Sequence record: OP870143.1
Source of the DNA: Escherichia phage vB_Eco_F22
Length of the DNA: 64,000 nucleotides
Direction: 5' to 3' (one strand)
The notes beneath the pieces are model-generated. The model saw nothing but the letters and a program-made list of their open reading frames with translations. It did no database searches and had not been told where the DNA came from. Below, piece after piece: positions 1,218 to 26,743 of the stretch. The position numbers and the translations under genes were made by a program. Numbering within the stretch: position 1 is the first letter of the stretch; each line of letters opens with the position of its first letter.

Positions 1218-1278
1218 GGGTATCCCTTATTTGGGGTTATAAACCCCGAAAGGAAACCCTCAAGTTTGGCCTCCCTAT

Positions 1279-1308
1279 TGAAGGGAGGTCTTTTTTTGAC
1301 TATTGTTT
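1279..1308 (+). terminator. Rho-independent terminator
   Basis: Hairpin ggcctccct-attgaa-gggaggtc followed by ttttttt. Confidence 0.65.
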
Positions 1309-1354: not shown

Positions 1355-1615
1355 ATGCGTAAAATTGCTATTGGATTCGGTTGTAGTGCTGTTACGGGCC
1401 TTATCGCTTATGCTGCCCACGTAATCTTGGGTATGTCACTGATTGACCTGACACCGGTCATGGTAGCTGCTATCGCAGCCCCACTATTTGGTATCGTAGT
1501 CTTTGACTTTAAAGCATTCAGCCGTGCTGCTGCTGAAGTAAGCAATCTAATCCTGGGCCGACTTGGACATCGTTCCTTTGGTTCTGGTAGTCTATGCCGA
1601 CCTCATGGTCTGTAA
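1355..1615 (+). CDS. small membrane protein
   Basis: 86-aa ORF with hydrophobic helices; AAGG Shine-Dalgarno upstream. Confidence 0.5.
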   Translation: MRKIAIGFGCSAVTGLIAYAAHVILGMSLIDLTPVMVAAIAAPLFGIVVFDFKAFSRAAAEVSNLILGRLGHRSFGSGSLCRPHGL

Positions 1616-1635
1616 AGTATAAACTGATAGATAAA

Positions 1636-1660
1636 CCCCAGCATTGACTGGGGTTTTTTG
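1636..1660 (+). terminator. Rho-independent terminator
   Basis: Hairpin ccccag-cattga-ctgggg followed by ttttttg. Confidence 0.6.
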
Positions 1661-1675
1661 CATCTGGAGCCAGGA

Positions 1676-1865
1676 AATGTATAAAGAGATTGCATTCTTC
1701 TCGTTCTTGTTAGGAGGGTTAATTGGTGCAGGAATTGTAGCTATTTCTAATACCTACTTTGGTTCTACTCCAAACTCTGTAACACAAACCCACAAGCATG
1801 AATGTGAATTGAATATCCCTCGTAATCAAAACTGCGTAATGCAGTTCGTACCGGAGAAGAAATGA
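1676..1865 (+). CDS. small membrane protein (start moved to the ATG after the terminator)
   Basis: The track ORF 1644..1865 begins inside the terminator; ATG at 1676 is preceded by ggagccaggaa; hydrophobic N-terminus. Confidence 0.45.
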
Positions 1866-2047
1866 AACTTACCCAGTCCCAAGTAATATTCCTTCGCATG
1901 GTTCAAGGTGGTTCTGCCACCAGCAACCGTAATAACAAAACCGCACAGTCTCTTAAGAAGCTGGGCTTAGTACAGTTCAATACTGGTCTTGGGTGGTCAT
2001 TAACCCCTACCGGAGTAATTCAACTCAACGAATTAAAAGGTAACTAA
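1862..2047 (+). CDS. hypothetical protein
   Basis: 61-aa ORF whose start overlaps the stop of the previous gene (ATGA). Confidence 0.4.
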   Translation: MKLTQSQVIFLRMVQGGSATSNRNNKTAQSLKKLGLVQFNTGLGWSLTPTGVIQLNELKGN

Positions 2048-2374
2048 ATGAAAACTTTAATTGCTGTTGCTGTAGTAGCTTTATCAGTTCTGTCATTCGG
2101 TGCTCAAGCATCTAGTCGTGCAACCTTGCTGGAAGCTGCTGCTGATTACAAAGCTAATAATACAAACTTTGTGAACCAGGGTTACTTCATGGGCATGGTT
2201 ACCATGGGGGTGGAAGCAGGAAAGAACTGTGTACCTGACGATATGAAGTTAGGGCACATTTTTGACAGAGTGGCTTCTATTATTCTGTATGACCGAAAGG
2301 TTAATGCAATGAAAGTACCTTCAGACATGGTTCTGTTAGCGATTGATACAGCGTATCCCTGCGTTAAATCTTAA
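2048..2374 (+). CDS. small secreted/periplasmic protein with signal peptide
   Basis: N-terminus MKTLIAVAVVALSVLSFGAQA-SS is a Sec signal peptide with an AxA cleavage motif. Confidence 0.55.
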   Translation: MKTLIAVAVVALSVLSFGAQASSRATLLEAAADYKANNTNFVNQGYFMGMVTMGVEAGKNCVPDDMKLGHIFDRVASIILYDRKVNAMKVPSDMVLLAIDTAYPCVKS

Positions 2375-2408
2375 TTAGTAATTCCATTAACTTTAGGAGA
2401 GTAAGTAA

Positions 2409-3461
2409 ATGGCGAGCATTGACTCCTTGACTGTATGTAATACACGCCAAGCCCGTAACTTTATTATCCGTGCCTTACAAGCAGGTAACGTACCGTTCCT
2501 GACTTCATCGCCGGGCATGGGTAAATCTGCAATTATCCGTTCTGTTGCAGAAGAATTTGGCATGAAGCTGATTGACCATCGTCTATCTACTTCTGCCCCG
2601 GAAGACTTATCTGGTCTACCATTCCGTAATGGTGACCGTGCAGAGTTTATCCCTTTCGCTGACTTATTCCCTATTGAGGGTGACGAAGTACCGGAAGGTT
2701 ATAATGGCTGGCTCCTGTTCCTTGATGAGTTCAACTCAGCTAAGAAAGAAGTAGTAGCTGCTGCATATAAACTGATTCTAGACCGTATGACTGGACAGAA
2801 AAAACTTCACCCCAACGTGATGATTATCTGTGCCGGTAATAAAGCTACTGACCGTGCTATCGTTAACCCTCTAGGTACTGCAATGCAGTCCCGTGTTGTC
2901 CACTTCGAAATGGAACTTAACTTCGACATCTTTGTTGAAGACGTAATGATTCCACAAGAATGGGATGAGCGTCTGGTTGCATTTTTACATGCTAACCCAG
3001 GTTATCTGCACGACTTCGACCCTGCCCATAAGAACAAAACATTCTGTTGCCCTCGTACCTGGGACTTTGTTAATAAAGACCTCAAGAACCGACCAGAAGG
3101 TGCTTTGCCTGATGAAGATTCTATCTACTATGCAGGTCACGTTACTGCTGGTAAAGCTACAGAATTTGTTCAGTTCACCCAGGTATACAATCGTATGATT
3201 ACGATTGAGAAGGTAGTCAAAGACCCATTGGGCTGTGCACTACCGGAGGATAATAACCTGTGTTGGGCTACCGTTAACCACCTGGCTAACAAGACTACTG
3301 AAGATAACTTCGCTGATGTACTTAAGTACATTGAACGCTTTAAAACGTTCACCCATAAGATTCTGTACTTCCGTACAGTAGGCAAAGCATTACCAGAAAT
3401 TCAGGCTACCCCTGAATGGCGTAAGGCTGCTGCTAATATCTCTCGTTACATTCACGGATAA
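2409..3461 (+). CDS. MoxR-like AAA+ ATPase
   Basis: Walker A SSPGMGKSAI, Walker B LLFLDEFN, sensor-1-like CAGNK; GGAG RBS upstream. Confidence 0.85.
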   Translation: MASIDSLTVCNTRQARNFIIRALQAGNVPFLTSSPGMGKSAIIRSVAEEFGMKLIDHRLSTSAPEDLSGLPFRNGDRAEFIPFADLFPIEGDEVPEGYNGWLLFLDEFNSAKKEVVAAAYKLILDRMTGQKKLHPNVMIICAGNKATDRAIVNPLGTAMQSRVVHFEMELNFDIFVEDVMIPQEWDERLVAFLHANPGYLHDFDPAHKNKTFCCPRTWDFVNKDLKNRPEGALPDEDSIYYAGHVTAGKATEFVQFTQVYNRMITIEKVVKDPLGCALPEDNNLCWATVNHLANKTTEDNFADVLKYIERFKTFTHKILYFRTVGKALPEIQATPEWRKAAANISRYIHG

Positions 3462-3468
3462 TCACAAC

Positions 3469-4644
3469 ATGAACCAGATACCTCAGCACACACTTAGTGA
3501 TGAACAACTCATGCGTGAGTATGACCGTATTCAGGCCAAAGCCTTTCTCGGACGTAGTGCAGCGTTTTTTGGTTCATTGCTGTGTAGTCTTAAGTTCTCA
3601 TGGAAACGTGAAGACTGTCCTACCGCATGTACTGATGGGATAGAACTGCATTTCAACCCAGACTTCTTTATCTGGATGTGTCCTGATGCAAGAGAAACAG
3701 TATTAATGCACGAGCTATGGCATGTGGCATATCTACATGACATCCGTCGTGGAAGCCGTGACCCAGAAGTCTGGAACCAGGCTTGTGACCACTTCATTAA
3801 CCTTCAGTTAGAAGAAGATGGTTACAAGTTCACTGGTATCGACGAAGGTATTTGTAAAGACCCTCAATATAAAGGATGGGTCGAAGAAGACATCTACGAT
3901 GACCTGATGAAGAACCCTCAGAAAAGGCAGAAGCCGTCAGGGGGTGCTGGAGCAGGTCTTGCTGGCGACATGAAATCCCCCACTTCGGGACAGTCCCAGG
4001 GTGCTGTCGTCAATAACGTAGTACGTGCAATGCAAAGCCAGAAGATGGCTGGTGGACAGATGCCTGGTAAAGGTGCTGGTCGTATGGAAGAGGTCATTAC
4101 CCAATTCCTTAAACCAGTGGTTCCTTGGCAGGAAGTTCTGATGAACTTCTTTACCGACATTGATGACACACATTATACGTGGGCCAGACCTAATCGTCGT
4201 TACACTGACATCTATCTACCTTCACTGGAAGATGATGAAGGACGTCTACGTCACTTAGCCTACTTTGAGGATGTATCTGGTTCCATCAGTAGTGCTGACT
4301 CTCTGCGTTTTAACTCAGAGGTTGCCTACGTTAAGAGCCAGTTCAATCCTAAGAAGATGTCCCTAATTACCTTCGACGATATTATCCAGGAAGAAATAGA
4401 CATCACTGAAGAAGATACTTTTGAAGAGATTAAGATTACAGGTCGTGGTGGTACAAACCTTGAACCAGTACGCGAATGGATTATTAAGAATAAGCCAACC
4501 GCTGCAATCATATTCTCCGATATGTATGTTCGTCCAATGGAAGAATTGCCATTTGATATTTCCATCATCTGGTGTGTTCTGAATAATCCCAATGCTACCG
4601 TACCTTTTGGGGAGGTAGTTCATATCCCTAAAGGAATGAAATAA
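3469..4644 (+). CDS. VWA-domain protein with N-terminal HExxH metallopeptidase-like motif (MoxR partner)
   Basis: HELWH zinc-binding motif and MIDAS-like DVSGS in the C-terminal half; immediately downstream of the AAA gene. Confidence 0.75.
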   Translation: MNQIPQHTLSDEQLMREYDRIQAKAFLGRSAAFFGSLLCSLKFSWKREDCPTACTDGIELHFNPDFFIWMCPDARETVLMHELWHVAYLHDIRRGSRDPEVWNQACDHFINLQLEEDGYKFTGIDEGICKDPQYKGWVEEDIYDDLMKNPQKRQKPSGGAGAGLAGDMKSPTSGQSQGAVVNNVVRAMQSQKMAGGQMPGKGAGRMEEVITQFLKPVVPWQEVLMNFFTDIDDTHYTWARPNRRYTDIYLPSLEDDEGRLRHLAYFEDVSGSISSADSLRFNSEVAYVKSQFNPKKMSLITFDDIIQEEIDITEEDTFEEIKITGRGGTNLEPVREWIIKNKPTAAIIFSDMYVRPMEELPFDISIIWCVLNNPNATVPFGEVVHIPKGMK

Positions 4645-5150
4645 TGGTTGTTAATGGTAATTCTCTATATCGCTCATCTCAGTTGCTGGATGTTCCAGAC
4701 CATAAGGTATCTGAACATGGTGTAAGCTATGGATTAGGTGAAGCTGGCTACGATATTCGTATCAAACAGGACATTACCTTCTATCACTTATTTGGGTTGA
4801 TTCCAATGGTGAAGGTCGTTGATGGAAATCAAGTATCACGCCATTTCGGTAAGTTCACATTGGCTTCAGCAATTGAGAAGTTCAACATGTCCCCTTCCTG
4901 TGTAGCTATCGTTCACGATAAGTCTACATGGGCAAGACGTGCATTATCAGTGTTCAATACCGTAATAGAACCAGGATGGAAAGGGTATTTGACTCTTGAA
5001 CTGGTCTATCATGGTCGTAAGAAACTACATATCCCGGCTGGTGCTGGGATAGCTCAAGTATTATTTCATCTGGTTCAGGAACCTGCTAATTACAACGGCA
5101 AGTATCAGAACCAGGAAAATCAACCAGTAGCTGCAAGAAGCAGTAAATAA
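4644..5150 (+). CDS. dCTP deaminase / dUTPase-family protein
   Basis: 168 aa with the GEAGYDIR motif typical of the dUTPase/dCTP-deaminase fold; start overlaps the upstream stop (ATAATGG). Confidence 0.6.
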   Translation: MVVNGNSLYRSSQLLDVPDHKVSEHGVSYGLGEAGYDIRIKQDITFYHLFGLIPMVKVVDGNQVSRHFGKFTLASAIEKFNMSPSCVAIVHDKSTWARRALSVFNTVIEPGWKGYLTLELVYHGRKKLHIPAGAGIAQVLFHLVQEPANYNGKYQNQENQPVAARSSK

Positions 5151-5369: not shown

Positions 5370-5442
5370 GTAGCTGCCTAAATAGCCCAGCATAGTTGGG
5401 CTATTTGTGAAGAAACTAACTCAACCCCACATAGGAACTATC

Positions 5443-5703
5443 ATGGAATCTTTAGCAGCAATCCTTATTCTGTTATTTGCACTAGCTGTATACCTTATCC
5501 CTACCATTATTGCTTTTGCACGGGGCCATGCCTCTAAGTGGGGAATTGGTGTACTCAACATCGTATTAGGCTGGTCTTTGGTCTTCTGGGTAGTAGCACT
5601 GATTTGGTCACTGTCTAATAAAGGACAGTCTCAGACTACAATCGTTAACGTTGGTAGTGGGAACCAATACAACGTGTCTCAAACGAGCCAGTCTGATAAG
5701 TAA
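5443..5703 (+). CDS. superinfection-immunity-like small membrane protein (Imm-type motif)
   Basis: Motif IIAFARGH-x5-GIGVLNIVLGWSLVFWVVALIWSL resembles the superinfection-immunity membrane family; ATG at 5443 with AGGAA RBS is preferred over the GTG at 5407. Confidence 0.5.
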   Translation: MESLAAILILLFALAVYLIPTIIAFARGHASKWGIGVLNIVLGWSLVFWVVALIWSLSNKGQSQTTIVNVGSGNQYNVSQTSQSDK

Positions 5704-5777: not shown

Positions 5778-5806
5778 AAGCCCACCTAACCCGTGGGCTT
5801 TTTTAA
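5778..5806 (+). terminator. Rho-independent terminator
   Basis: Hairpin aagcccac-ctaaccc-gtgggctt followed by ttttttaatt. Confidence 0.6.
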
Positions 5807-26667: not shown

Positions 26668-26743
26668 GTCCACTTAGCTTAGACTGGGAAAGCAACCGAC
26701 TAATAATCGGAAGGTCACTGGTTCAAATCCAGTAGTGGACACC
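26668..26743 (+). tRNA. tRNA (cloverleaf folds by hand; anticodon reading uncertain)
   Basis: Acceptor gtccact/agtggac 7/7 bp, D-stem gctt/aagc, T-arm actgg-ttcaaat-ccagt, discriminator A then CC; anticodon stem has 4 of 5 pairs and the loop ctaataa gives an unusual AAT anticodon. Confidence 0.5.

What the first reader, a model, noticed from the sequence alone, without database searches (positions are those of the whole stretch)
2409..4644. MoxR-type AAA ATPase paired with a VWA protein carrying an HExxH motif
This is a classic chaperone-like two-gene module (Walker A/B ATPase followed by a MIDAS-containing VWA protein), but here the VWA partner also carries a metallopeptidase-like HELWH motif. 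The module is placed early, among host-interaction genes. Its target in infection is not evident from sequence and could be host-directed proteolysis or remodelling.
Basis: partly seen in the sequence, partly recalled or inferred. Interest (0 to 1): 0.45.

Follow-up and report, generated by a model that had tools for sequence, protein, structure and literature searches.

The report
N4 gp24/gp25 ATPase–VWA–zincin core pair
The two genes are real: a MoxR-like ATPase followed by a protein that joins a zinc-protease-like domain to a metal-binding VWA adaptor domain, but they are the long-catalogued gp24/gp25 core pair of all N4-like phages, already described in the literature and still without a tested function.

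Summary

**What is there**
- The window is a G7C-like N4-like coliphage (Gamaleyavirus), 93-95% identical in DNA to sequenced phages.
- ORF 2409-3461 is the N4 gp24 orthologue. It is an AAA+ ATPase of the MoxR/midasin (AAA_5) type, with invariant Walker A and B motifs.
- ORF 3469-4644 is the N4 gp25 orthologue: Pfam DUF2201_N ("putative metallopeptidase", E 6e-57) plus DUF2201 ("VWA-like", E 2e-33).
- HELWH and the full MIDAS motif (DxSGS...T...D) are invariant in N4-like homologues.

- The HExxH domain is the defining architecture of a very large family (21,484 clusters), not a peculiarity of this phage.
- gp24 and gp25 are two of the 14 core genes of N4-like phages.
- The pair lies in the middle-gene block with nucleotide-metabolism genes, not among early genes.
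- The same ATPase-then-peptidase/VWA pair occurs in jumbo phages, rV5-like phages, plasmids and archaeal contigs. Iyer et al. 2021 described it as a MoxR-vWA pair with an N-terminal metallopeptidase.

**Function**
No function has been tested. The most likely one is an ATP-driven, MIDAS-targeted protein remodelling and cleavage machine. Its client is unknown.

The parts
1268..1290 (+). Terminator-like hairpin after the gp17 (head decoration) gene. It is the likely upstream boundary of the transcription unit that holds the module.
   Evidence: 9-bp stem, 6 G-C pairs, followed by a T-run. PhAPEC7 has an annotated terminator at the equivalent place.
2395..2399 (+). Shine-Dalgarno-like AGGAG, 9 nt upstream of the gp24-like start codon.
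   Evidence: Read directly from the sequence.
2409..3461 (+). gp24-like AAA+ ATPase of the MoxR/midasin (AAA_5) type, 350 aa.
   Evidence: Pfam AAA 2e-6; AAA_5 below cut-off. PHROG 1297 'ATPase' 6e-134. 61.8% identical to N4 gp24. Among solved structures only midasin AAA domains match.
2514..2528 (+). Walker A motif GMGKS (aa 36-40).
   Evidence: G38, K39 and S40 are invariant.
2598..2621 (+). Conserved PEDLSGLP segment (aa 64-71) between Walker A and Walker B, at the position of the helix-2 insert of MoxR/midasin-type ATPases (the positional assignment is inferred). In relatives it is also an intron or homing-endonuclease insertion site.
   Evidence: P64, D66, G69 and P71 are invariant; insertions in pSb-1 and L006 at codon 67/68.
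2715..2729 (+). Walker B motif LFLDE (aa 103-107).
   Evidence: D106 and E107 are invariant.
2832..2894 (+). Candidate sensor-1 (AGN, N144) and arginine finger (QSR, R162).
   Evidence: Invariant. The functional assignment is inferred from the usual AAA+ motif order.
3048..3062 (+). CPRTW motif (aa 214-218), with R216 as the candidate sensor-2 arginine in the lid domain.
   Evidence: R216 and T217 are invariant. The role is inferred.
3469..4644 (+). gp25-like protein, 391 aa: N-terminal zincin-like domain, a partly disordered middle region, and a C-terminal VWA domain. It starts 7 nt after the gp24 stop codon. Its stop codon overlaps the dCTP deaminase start codon by 1 nt.
   Evidence: Pfam DUF2201_N 5.7e-57 (aa 17-253) and DUF2201 1.7e-33 (aa 263-386). 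61.5% identical to N4 gp25. Gene junctions read.
3709..3738 (+). HELWHVAYLH (aa 81-90): HExxH on the predicted helix 72-87, plus H90, one candidate third metal ligand.
   Evidence: H81, E82 and H85 are invariant and H90 is kept in at least 90% of homologues. Helix positions come from the models.
3781..3789 (+). ACD motif (aa 105-107): D107 lies on the next long helix and is the alternative candidate third metal ligand.
   Evidence: A105 and D107 are invariant, including in distant phage lineages.
4186..4203 (+). Conserved basic RPNRRY motif (aa 240-245) just before the VWA domain. Its role is unknown.
   Evidence: R243 and R244 are invariant in N4-likes. The region is low-confidence in both models.
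4270..4284 (+). MIDAS motif DVSGS (aa 268-272).
   Evidence: D, S and S are kept in 390 of 390 homologues. A weak match to the integrin I-domain lies at this motif.
4447..4455 (+). GGT: MIDAS threonine T329.
   Evidence: Invariant.
4513..4521 (+). FSD: MIDAS aspartate D351.
   Evidence: Invariant.
4644..5150 (+). dCTP deaminase (N4 gp26 orthologue), overlapping the gp25 stop codon by 1 nt (translational coupling is an inference). It is a neighbour in the same transcription unit, not part of the module.
   Evidence: Pfam DCD 1.5e-15. TAATG overlap read.
5778..5800 (+). Terminator-like hairpin: the likely downstream end of the transcription unit.
   Evidence: PhAPEC7 has an annotated terminator at the equivalent position.

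Best explanation
These are the N4 gp24/gp25 orthologues of a G7C-like phage. They form a two-protein, ATP-driven protein-remodelling and cleavage machine.

Proposed mechanism:
- gp24 is a MoxR/midasin-type AAA+ ATPase that presumably forms a ring.
- gp25 is its adaptor. The C-terminal VWA domain would use its intact MIDAS metal site to grip an acidic residue of a client protein, as in other MoxR-vWA pairs.
- The N-terminal zincin domain (HExxH plus H90 or D107) would cut the client once the ATPase has loosened or presented it.
- In effect this would be a split, MIDAS-targeted analogue of an AAA+ metalloprotease.

Expression and likely client:
- The pair is expressed in the middle phase, in one transcription unit with dCTP deaminase.
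- It is a universal, fairly well conserved core gene pair across N4-like phages of very different hosts. I therefore judge the client more likely to be a conserved protein or complex of the phage itself (assembly or maturation of a virion or replication component) than a host-specific target.

Shown here:
- domain identities, motif conservation and predicted folds;
- obligatory gene pairing;
- core status and genomic position.

Inferred:
- ring formation;
- MIDAS-client binding;
- actual proteolysis;
- the identity of the client.
For: Domains, motifs and folds:
- Domain assignments.
- Invariant Walker A/B, sensor and arginine-finger candidates.
- Invariant HExxH, H90, D107 and MIDAS residues.

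Pairing:
- A gp24-like gene lies next to or near every gp25-like gene in all loci with enough flank. These include jumbo and mega phages, rV5-like phages, archaeal MAG contigs and plasmids.

Core status and context:
- Two of 14 N4-like core genes; middle transcripts in N4.
- About 62% identity to N4, mid-rank among core genes.
- Catalytic E82 is kept in 120 of 120 N4-like homologues.
- A terminator-bounded unit shared with the dCTP deaminase gene.
- In roseophage relatives, virion proteins expressed in mid-phase are encoded next to the gp24/25 homologues.

Precedent:
- Iyer et al. 2021 describe the same architecture in jumbo phages and propose virion assembly with proteolytic processing. They cite the MoxR-vWA pair needed for tail development of the Acidianus two-tailed virus.
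- ATV ORF892 is a weak structural match here.
Against: - No experiment on gp24 or gp25 of any N4-like phage was found.
- The region aa 150-260 is poorly modelled.
- In the Atu_ph07-like megaphage clade, 9 of 120 members have lost the catalytic Glu while keeping both His residues and the MIDAS site. Proteolysis is therefore not indispensable to the family.
- The module also sits on plasmids that make no virions, so a virion-specific role cannot be general.
- Neither protein is listed among virion proteins in the papers read.
- The ATPase is below the Pfam cut-offs for the MoxR-specific models.
Confidence: 0.45

Rival explanations
1. Host-directed or counter-defence protease. The pair remodels and cleaves a host protein, such as a defence or stress factor, to secure infection. 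Plasmids would use the same activity to establish themselves in a new cell.
For: - The module is spread across very different mobile elements: phages, conjugative plasmids and pSYSA.
- In two bacterial cases a DUF262 gene lies near it, and on pSYSA toxin-antitoxin genes flank it.
- MoxR-vWA cores are known parts of bacterial conflict systems.
- Small membrane or secreted ORFs lie just upstream in the window.
- ArdC, an anti-restriction zincin, is among the weak fold matches.
Against: - It is a universal core gene pair kept at 45-60% identity across N4-like phages of alpha-, beta- and gamma-proteobacteria. Anti-defence genes are usually variable accessory genes (general knowledge).
- It is expressed in the middle phase, not early.
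- There is no hit in the PADLOC defence library beyond a 0.004 E-value noise match.
Confidence: 0.2
2. Removal of proteins from DNA during replication. This would be a prokaryotic-virus analogue of Wss1/SPRTN working with the AAA+ unfoldase Cdc48/p97. The ATPase extracts a DNA-bound or crosslinked protein, or a clamp-like ring, and the zincin degrades it.
For: - Neighbours are repeatedly nucleic-acid enzymes. These are dCTP deaminase, ThyX and the replication genes here. In megaphages they are DNA polymerase I, 5'-3' exonuclease, RNA ligase and glutaredoxin.
- In a Burkholderia plasmid a beta-clamp-like gene lies between the two genes.
- In a Rhodococcus plasmid an SOS-response-associated peptidase and LigD lie nearby.
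Against: - The fold scores are low and no better than for unrelated zincins.
- No DNA-binding domain was detected.
- The N-terminal domain is acidic (pI 4.8).
- Gene neighbourhoods in phages are weak evidence, and the clamp-like neighbour was seen in one genus only (it is absent in Cupriavidus).
Confidence: 0.1
3. Non-proteolytic metal-insertion or complex-activating chaperone, like CobS/CobT, BchI/BchD, NorQ/NorD or CbbQ/CbbO. The HExxH domain would act only as a metal- or client-binding domain.
For: - All well-studied MoxR-vWA pairs are remodellers or metal insertases rather than proteases.
- The NorD and BchD VWA domains are structural matches.
- The ATPase has a weak PHROG hit to 'porphyrin biosynthesis' (CobS-like) ATPases (6e-4).
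- The catalytic Glu is lost in some megaphage members while both His residues persist.
Against: - gp25 shows no detectable CobT, BchD or NorD N-terminal region. Its N-terminus is a zincin fold.
- The catalytic Glu is strictly kept in all 120 N4-like members and in more than 92% of the others. That pattern argues for catalysis.
Confidence: 0.1

Closest known systems
Bacteriophage N4 gp24 (ATPase) and gp25 (vWFA-domain protein), core genes of N4-like phages (Schitoviridae)
   Same: These are direct orthologues. Identity is 61.8% and 61.5%. Order and position are the same: after gp17 and before dCTP deaminase gp26. They are listed among the 14 N4-like core genes and reported as middle transcripts.
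   Different: Nothing of substance. In the window the two genes are 7 nt apart, against 167 nt in N4. Some close relatives carry HNH endonuclease insertions that the window lacks.
MoxR AAA+ / vWA chaperone-cochaperone pair with an N-terminal metallopeptidase on the vWA protein, described in group 2.2 jumbo phages (Iyer et al. 2021, PMC7824862)
   Same: The architecture and gene order are the same. The Atu_ph07 pair aligns with the window proteins: tblastn gives 29% (ATPase) and 22% identity, and the alignment gives 23% for the VWA protein. H81, H85, H90, D107 and the MIDAS residues are conserved.
   Different: The jumbo-phage proteins are longer and carry insertions. Atu_ph07 itself has HQILH, so the catalytic Glu is lost. 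The virion-assembly role proposed for them is untested there too.
Pfam DUF2201_N (PF13203) + DUF2201 (PF09967) proteins paired with MoxR-family ATPases on plasmids, e.g. the Synechocystis pSYSA pair (the N4 record also notes similarity to an S. coelicolor pair)
   Same: Same two domains and the same upstream ATPase, with overlapping or adjacent genes.
   Different: Identity is 25-35%. The context is plasmid or island, with toxin-antitoxin and DUF262 neighbours. Burkholderiales plasmids insert one or two extra genes between the pair.
Characterised MoxR-vWA systems: RavA-ViaA, CbbQ-CbbO, NorQ-NorD, CobS-CobT, BchI-BchD, midasin, ATV p618-p892
   Different: None of these has a zincin domain on the VWA protein. 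They remodel clients or insert metals rather than cleave them. Sequence similarity is marginal.
AAA+ metalloproteases and AAA+-assisted zincins (FtsH; Wss1/SPRTN with Cdc48/p97)
   Same: The functional logic is the same: an ATP-driven unfoldase coupled to an HExxH zincin. Wss1 and Spartan are weak fold matches.
   Different: FtsH has both activities in one chain and an M41 peptidase domain. The AAA+ clades differ (classical against MoxR/midasin). Here substrate recognition would go through a MIDAS site. There is no evidence of homology beyond the zincin superfamily level.

Membership tests
MoxR-family AAA+ ATPase (MoxR/midasin/dynein, helix-2-insert clade) | Walker A GxxGxGK[ST] and Walker B hhhhDE | tested here: met
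   GMGKS at aa 36-40 and LFLDE at aa 103-107, invariant in 39 homologues.
MoxR-family AAA+ ATPase (MoxR/midasin/dynein, helix-2-insert clade) | Significant match to clade-specific profiles (Pfam AAA_5 PF07728, AAA_3 PF07726, bpMoxR PF20030) | tested here: inconclusive
   Window protein: AAA_5 17.7 bits (cut-off 22) and bpMoxR 13.7 bits (cut-off 27). Only the generic AAA model passes. Among 39 homologues, AAA_5 matches 34 (best E 9e-6), bpMoxR 9 and AAA_3 7. The only hit among solved structures is midasin AAA domains, E 5.8e-5.
MoxR-family AAA+ ATPase (MoxR/midasin/dynein, helix-2-insert clade) | Helix-2 insert and pre-sensor-1 beta-hairpin seen in the structure | not tested
A conserved DHRLSTSAPEDLSGLP segment lies where the helix-2 insert would be, but that reading is an inference.
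MoxR-family AAA+ ATPase (MoxR/midasin/dynein, helix-2-insert clade) | Genomic coupling to a VWA/MIDAS partner | tested here: met
   A gp24-like gene lies upstream of the gp25-like gene in every locus with enough flank. The one exception in arrangement is the rV5-like phage, where it is 3.6 kb away on the other strand.
VWA domain with MIDAS | VWA alpha/beta fold | tested here: met
VWA domain with MIDAS | Complete MIDAS motif DxSxS...T...D | tested here: met
   D268, S270, S272, T329 and D351. The first three are kept in 390 of 390 homologues, T329 in 388 of 390 and D351 in 389 of 390.
Zincin metallopeptidase (Pfam DUF2201_N) | HExxH on an active-site helix | tested here: met
   HELWH at aa 81-85 within the predicted helix 72-87. 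Invariant in 120 of 120 N4-like homologues.
Zincin metallopeptidase (Pfam DUF2201_N) | Zincin fold | tested here: met
Zincin metallopeptidase (Pfam DUF2201_N) | Identified third metal ligand | tested here: inconclusive
   There are two conserved candidates: H90 (HExxHxxxxH) and D107 on the following helix. Model coordinates could not be inspected.
Zincin metallopeptidase (Pfam DUF2201_N) | Metal binding and peptidase activity | not testable with these tools
   This needs biochemistry. Note that the catalytic Glu is lost in 9 of 120 Atu_ph07-like members.
N4 gp24/gp25 orthologous group (Schitoviridae core genes) | Reciprocal similarity and conserved synteny with N4 gp24-gp25-gp26 | tested here: met
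   61.8% and 61.5% identity over the full length, same order and neighbours. PHROGs 1297 and 1314 match at 6e-134 and 2e-143.
Cobaltochelatase CobS/CobT or Mg-chelatase BchI/BchD | Chelatase-specific N-terminal region on the VWA subunit; strong match of the ATPase to CobS/BchI | tested here: not met
   No CobT, BchD or Mg_chelatase Pfam hit for either protein. The N-terminus of gp25 is a zincin. There is only a 6e-4 PHROG hit to CobS-like ATPases.
HNH endonuclease (the label that PHROG 1314 and several RefSeq records give to gp25 homologues) | HNH / beta-beta-alpha-metal nuclease domain | tested here: not met
   No HNH family hit in Pfam. The whole length is accounted for by DUF2201_N plus DUF2201. 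The label probably spread from homing-endonuclease genes inserted next to or within this gene pair in some phages.

The most novel reading that the evidence does not exclude
gp24/gp25 could be a widespread 'split AAA+ metalloprotease' of mobile elements that uses a MIDAS site to seize a specific DNA-associated protein and destroys it with ATP-driven help. The target might be a clamp-like ring, a stalled or crosslinked protein, or a host replication or defence factor bound to incoming DNA. This would be a prokaryotic-virus counterpart of Wss1/SPRTN with Cdc48. It would be essential for replication of all N4-like phages and shared with jumbo phages and conjugative plasmids.
Probability: 0.1. Interest if true: 0.6.

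Novelty: already known. Interest (0 to 1): 0.25.

Why it matters
The pair is one of the few universally conserved gene sets of N4-like phages. It recurs in jumbo phages, rV5-like phages, plasmids and archaeal elements, and the family has more than 21,000 clusters at 50% identity, yet nobody has tested what it does.

Finding its client would fill a real gap in the biology of a phage family used in therapy and ecology studies. It would also define a new functional type of MoxR-vWA system, one that cuts its client.

This particular window adds nothing beyond what is already in public records and in the 2014 and 2021 comparative papers.

Tried and rejected
**Searches that found nothing or little**
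- NCBIfam: no hit for either protein.
- PADLOC: only a noise-level DolB match.
- PDB by sequence for gp25: nothing with the single sequence; only a marginal integrin I-domain match with the profile.

**Attempts to reach cellular homologues**
- The genome-contig scan returned only N4-like contigs and two archaeal contigs.
- A homologue search seeded with the Atu_ph07 protein returned only jumbo and mega phage relatives.
- The plasmid collection then supplied the non-phage contexts.
- The afdb50 fold library was unavailable.

**Literature**
- Searches for functional data on gp24/gp25, DUF2201, COG3864, Schitoviridae with MoxR, and CRISPRi-ART with N4 found no experiments.
- The phAPEC6 virion proteomics paper does not mention the pair.

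**Readings rejected**
- Cobalt or magnesium chelatase: no chelatase domains.
- HNH endonuclease, the database label: no HNH domain.
- 'Early host-takeover gene': the pair is in the middle-gene block.
- HExxH as a chance motif: ruled out by the profile match and the conservation.
Full report
**What is at the coordinates**

- The first ORF is preceded by an AGGAG 9 nt upstream of its ATG.
- The second starts 7 nt after the stop codon of the first.
- The stop codon of the second overlaps the ATG of the next gene, a dCTP deaminase, by one base.
- Strong terminator-like hairpins at 1268-1290 and 5778-5800 bracket a unit. It holds three or four small ORFs, the two genes, the deaminase and two more small ORFs.

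**Where the window comes from**

The 2.2-kb region is 93-95% identical in DNA to 55 sequenced coliphages and Shigella phages of the genus Gamaleyavirus (G7C, PhAPEC7, E20, SP5M and others), family Schitoviridae.
- In the annotated relative PhAPEC7, the two genes are 'ATPase, similar to N4 gp24' and 'VWA-like domain-containing protein, similar to N4 gp25'. They lie after the early genes, after the two RNAPII subunit genes and after the gp17 decoration protein gene.
- A comparison of all major N4 proteins with the window confirms synteny along the whole window. gp24 is 61.8% and gp25 61.5% identical to N4. That is mid-rank among conserved genes (major capsid protein 89%, terminase 86%, DNA polymerase 73%, SSB 58%).

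**The ATPase**

Motifs invariant in 39 homologues down to about 50% identity:
- Walker A GMGKS (aa 36-40);
- Walker B LFLDE (aa 103-107);
- an AGN motif (N144);
- a QSR motif (R162);
- a CPRTW motif (R216).

I read N144, R162 and R216 as sensor 1, arginine finger and sensor 2 from the usual AAA+ motif order; this is an inference.

Profile evidence for the clade:
- The generic Pfam AAA model is passed.
- The clade-specific models AAA_5 and bpMoxR fall below their cut-offs for this sequence.
- AAA_5 nevertheless matches 34 of 39 homologues.
- The only matches among all solved structures are AAA domains of midasin.

With the obligatory VWA partner, this places the protein in the MoxR/midasin group, as a divergent member. 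I could not test the structural hallmarks (helix-2 insert, pre-sensor-1 hairpin).

**The second protein**

Pfam assigns residues 17-253 to DUF2201_N, 'putative metallopeptidase domain' (E 5.7e-57). It assigns residues 263-386 to DUF2201, 'VWA-like domain' (E 1.7e-33).

Conservation:
- In 38 N4-like homologues, H81, E82, H85, D107, D268, S270, S272, T329 and D351 are invariant, and H90 is nearly so.
- The same residues, apart from E82, hold in five distant phage lineages at 23-30% identity.
- Among 390 family members, the MIDAS D-S-S triad is kept in all.
- The two HExxH histidines are kept in 98-100%.
- The catalytic glutamate is kept in 120 of 120 N4-likes. It is replaced (L, Q, N or M) in 9 of 120 members of the Atu_ph07-like megaphage clade.

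Predicted structures:
- The full-length model has mean pLDDT 78.6. It is confident for residues 11-150 and 260-390 and poor for about 150-260.

So the HExxH sits in a zincin-like fold. The third ligand is either H90 or D107, and I could not decide between them. No close solved relative exists.

**The pair is a fixed module and a very large family**

- A profile of the N4-like proteins finds 21,484 clusters at 50% identity with E up to 1e-3, and 5,237 with E up to 1e-30.
- In the phage collection, gp25-like genes occur in 691 records and gp24-like genes in 806.
- These cover N4-likes of many hosts, rV5-like myoviruses, Asteriusvirus and Atu_ph07-type jumbo phages, PA5oct-like phages and Campylobacter phages. 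Structural search adds cyanophage S-TIM5, Bacillus phage PBS1 and a crAss-like virus.
- In every locus fetched with enough flank, a gp24-like ATPase gene lies just upstream of the gp25-like gene.
- This holds for 500-kb phage contigs, two archaeal MAG contigs, Synechocystis plasmid pSYSA and plasmids of Burkholderia, Cupriavidus, Rhodococcus and Sphaerotilus.
- In rV5-like phages the ATPase is 3.6 kb away on the other strand.

**What the literature says**

- Chan et al. 2014 list gp24 ('unknown') and gp25 ('vWFA domain') among the 14 core genes of N4-like phages and state that they have no known function. They also cite them as middle transcripts in N4.
- Iyer et al. [quoted passage not shown]
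- They propose a role in virion assembly with proteolytic processing, by analogy with the MoxR-vWA pair needed for tail development of the Acidianus two-tailed virus.
- By its ATPase-then-peptidase/VWA architecture, the Atu_ph07 pair fetched here belongs to the kind of pair that paper describes, and it aligns with the window proteins.
- I found no experimental work on the pair in any phage.

The interpretation needs three corrections.
1. The HExxH domain is the family's normal architecture, not an extra feature of this phage.
2. The module is a middle-gene core function, sharing a transcription unit with dCTP deaminase and lying upstream of ThyX, rIIA/B and the replication genes. It is not an early host-takeover gene, although a few small membrane or secreted ORFs do lie just upstream.

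**How it most likely works**

The established behaviour of MoxR-vWA pairs is that a ring ATPase remodels a client held by the MIDAS site of the VWA adaptor (summarised). The best-supported reading combines this with a conserved zincin on the adaptor: an ATP-driven, MIDAS-targeted remodelling and cleavage machine.

The catalytic Glu is strictly kept in N4-likes, which argues that cleavage matters there. Its loss in some megaphages shows that the adaptor and remodelling role is the more fundamental one.

The client is unknown.
- I lean to a conserved protein of the phage itself. The pair is universal, moderately well conserved across phages of very different hosts, and expressed in mid-phase. 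In roseophage relatives it sits beside structural genes expressed in mid-phase.
- A purely virion-directed role cannot be general, because plasmids carry the module.
- Host-directed or counter-defence proteolysis remains a live rival. It is supported by the distribution across mobile elements and by DUF262 or toxin-antitoxin neighbours in two bacterial contexts.
- A role in clearing proteins from DNA is a more speculative rival. It is suggested by nucleic-acid-enzyme neighbours, a clamp-like gene inside the Burkholderia version and weak Wss1/Spartan fold similarity.
- A non-proteolytic metal-insertion role like CobST or NorQD is least supported, because no chelatase-type domains are present.

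**Verdict**

The finding is real, correctly recognised at the domain level, and ordinary for this phage family. The pair is already annotated in public records, catalogued as core genes and described as an architecture in the literature.

The open question is the function of a widespread MoxR-vWA-zincin module. It is genuine, but this window does not make it more tractable. Novelty: already known. Interest: 0.25.

Noticed in passing
window 3469-4644; L012 4165-5307 (N4 gp25); L013 4977-6266: PHROG 1314 and several RefSeq records, including N4 gp25 itself, call this protein 'HNH endonuclease'. It has no HNH domain: its whole length is DUF2201_N plus DUF2201. The label looks like an annotation error that has spread through many phage records.
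   Followed up: partly
L025 503-1371 (Shigella phage pSb-1), corresponding to window nt 2609-2612; L006 4289-5145: In pSb-1 the gp24 gene is interrupted after nt 201 (codon 67/68, inside the conserved PEDLSGLP motif). The insert is 869 bp and carries an HNH endonuclease ORF. It also has a sub-threshold group I intron match (26.8 bits, E 5e-4). A distant N4-like contig (L006, 42% identity) has its ATPase split at the same codon 68. This looks like a recurrent intron or homing site. The window copy is uninterrupted.
   Followed up: partly
relatives of window 2409-4644 (G7C, Mimir124, NAN33P5): Several close relatives match the region in two or three pieces, with 0.5-1.7 kb of extra DNA annotated as HNH homing endonucleases. 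The gp24-gp25 interval therefore looks like a hot spot for homing-endonuclease insertion in Gamaleyaviruses.
   Followed up: no
L013 4977-6266 (Atu_ph07) and 8 other proteins among P0391-P0510: The catalytic glutamate of HExxH is replaced (Q in Atu_ph07; L, N or M in others) in 9 of 120 Atu_ph07-like megaphage homologues. Both histidines, H90, D107 and the MIDAS residues are kept. These may be pseudo-peptidase variants.
   Followed up: partly
L003 (Roseococcus MAG contig, 296 kb) and L004 (Mesorhizobium yinganensis isolate contig, 727 kb): Syntenic N4-like gene blocks lie inside large bacterial contigs. L003 carries RNAP1, RNAP2, gp24, gp25, dCTP deaminase, ThyX, gp35 and helicase; L004 shows the same run from gp24 to gp35. 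These could be integrated N4-like elements or assembly chimeras. Integration would be unusual for a phage family regarded as strictly lytic.
   Followed up: no
L027 (Acinetobacter baumannii 'plasmid' pRBH2-3, 75 kb): This record carries a DNA-directed RNA polymerase gene, a gp24-like ATPase, an HNH endonuclease and a gp25-like gene in N4-like order, and it has the size of an N4-like genome. It is probably an N4-like phage genome deposited as a plasmid.
   Followed up: no
L021 10506-12236 (pSYSA) and L028 6743-8539 (Sphaerotilus plasmid): A DUF262-domain gene lies within 0.7-2.3 kb of the MoxR/VWA-zincin pair in two unrelated bacterial plasmids. On pSYSA, toxin-antitoxin genes also flank the pair. 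This may be a defence-island association.
   Followed up: no
L020 5061-5864 (Burkholderia gladioli plasmid): A 267-aa protein with a DNA polymerase III beta-clamp central domain (Pfam E 3.9e-9) is encoded between the ATPase and the VWA-zincin gene. The related Cupriavidus plasmid lacks it but shares a roughly 300-aa unknown gene in that position.
   Followed up: partly
L017 376-11048 (569-kb phage-like contig): In this megaphage contig the gp25-like gene lies among genes for ClpX, ClpS and ClpP homologues and a ribosomal protein S21 gene. This is a cluster of proteolysis-related genes.
   Followed up: no
window 26668-26743 (+): A single tRNA gene, tRNA-Ile with anticodon AAT, lies at the end of the rightward-transcribed block.
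   Followed up: no
window about 28000: GC skew changes sign near 28 kb. This coincides with the switch from rightward middle genes to leftward late genes, starting with the virion RNA polymerase ORF (about 28.5-39 kb, minus strand). That 3609-aa ORF also contains a chance HExxH (HELVH).
   Followed up: partly
window 1355-2374 and 5407-5703 (+): The small ORFs in the same transcription unit look like membrane or secreted proteins. For example, ORF 2048-2374 starts with a signal-peptide-like MKTLIAVAVVALSVLSFGAQA. The counterpart of ORF 5407-5703 in PhAPEC7 is annotated 'immunity to superinfection'.
   Followed up: no
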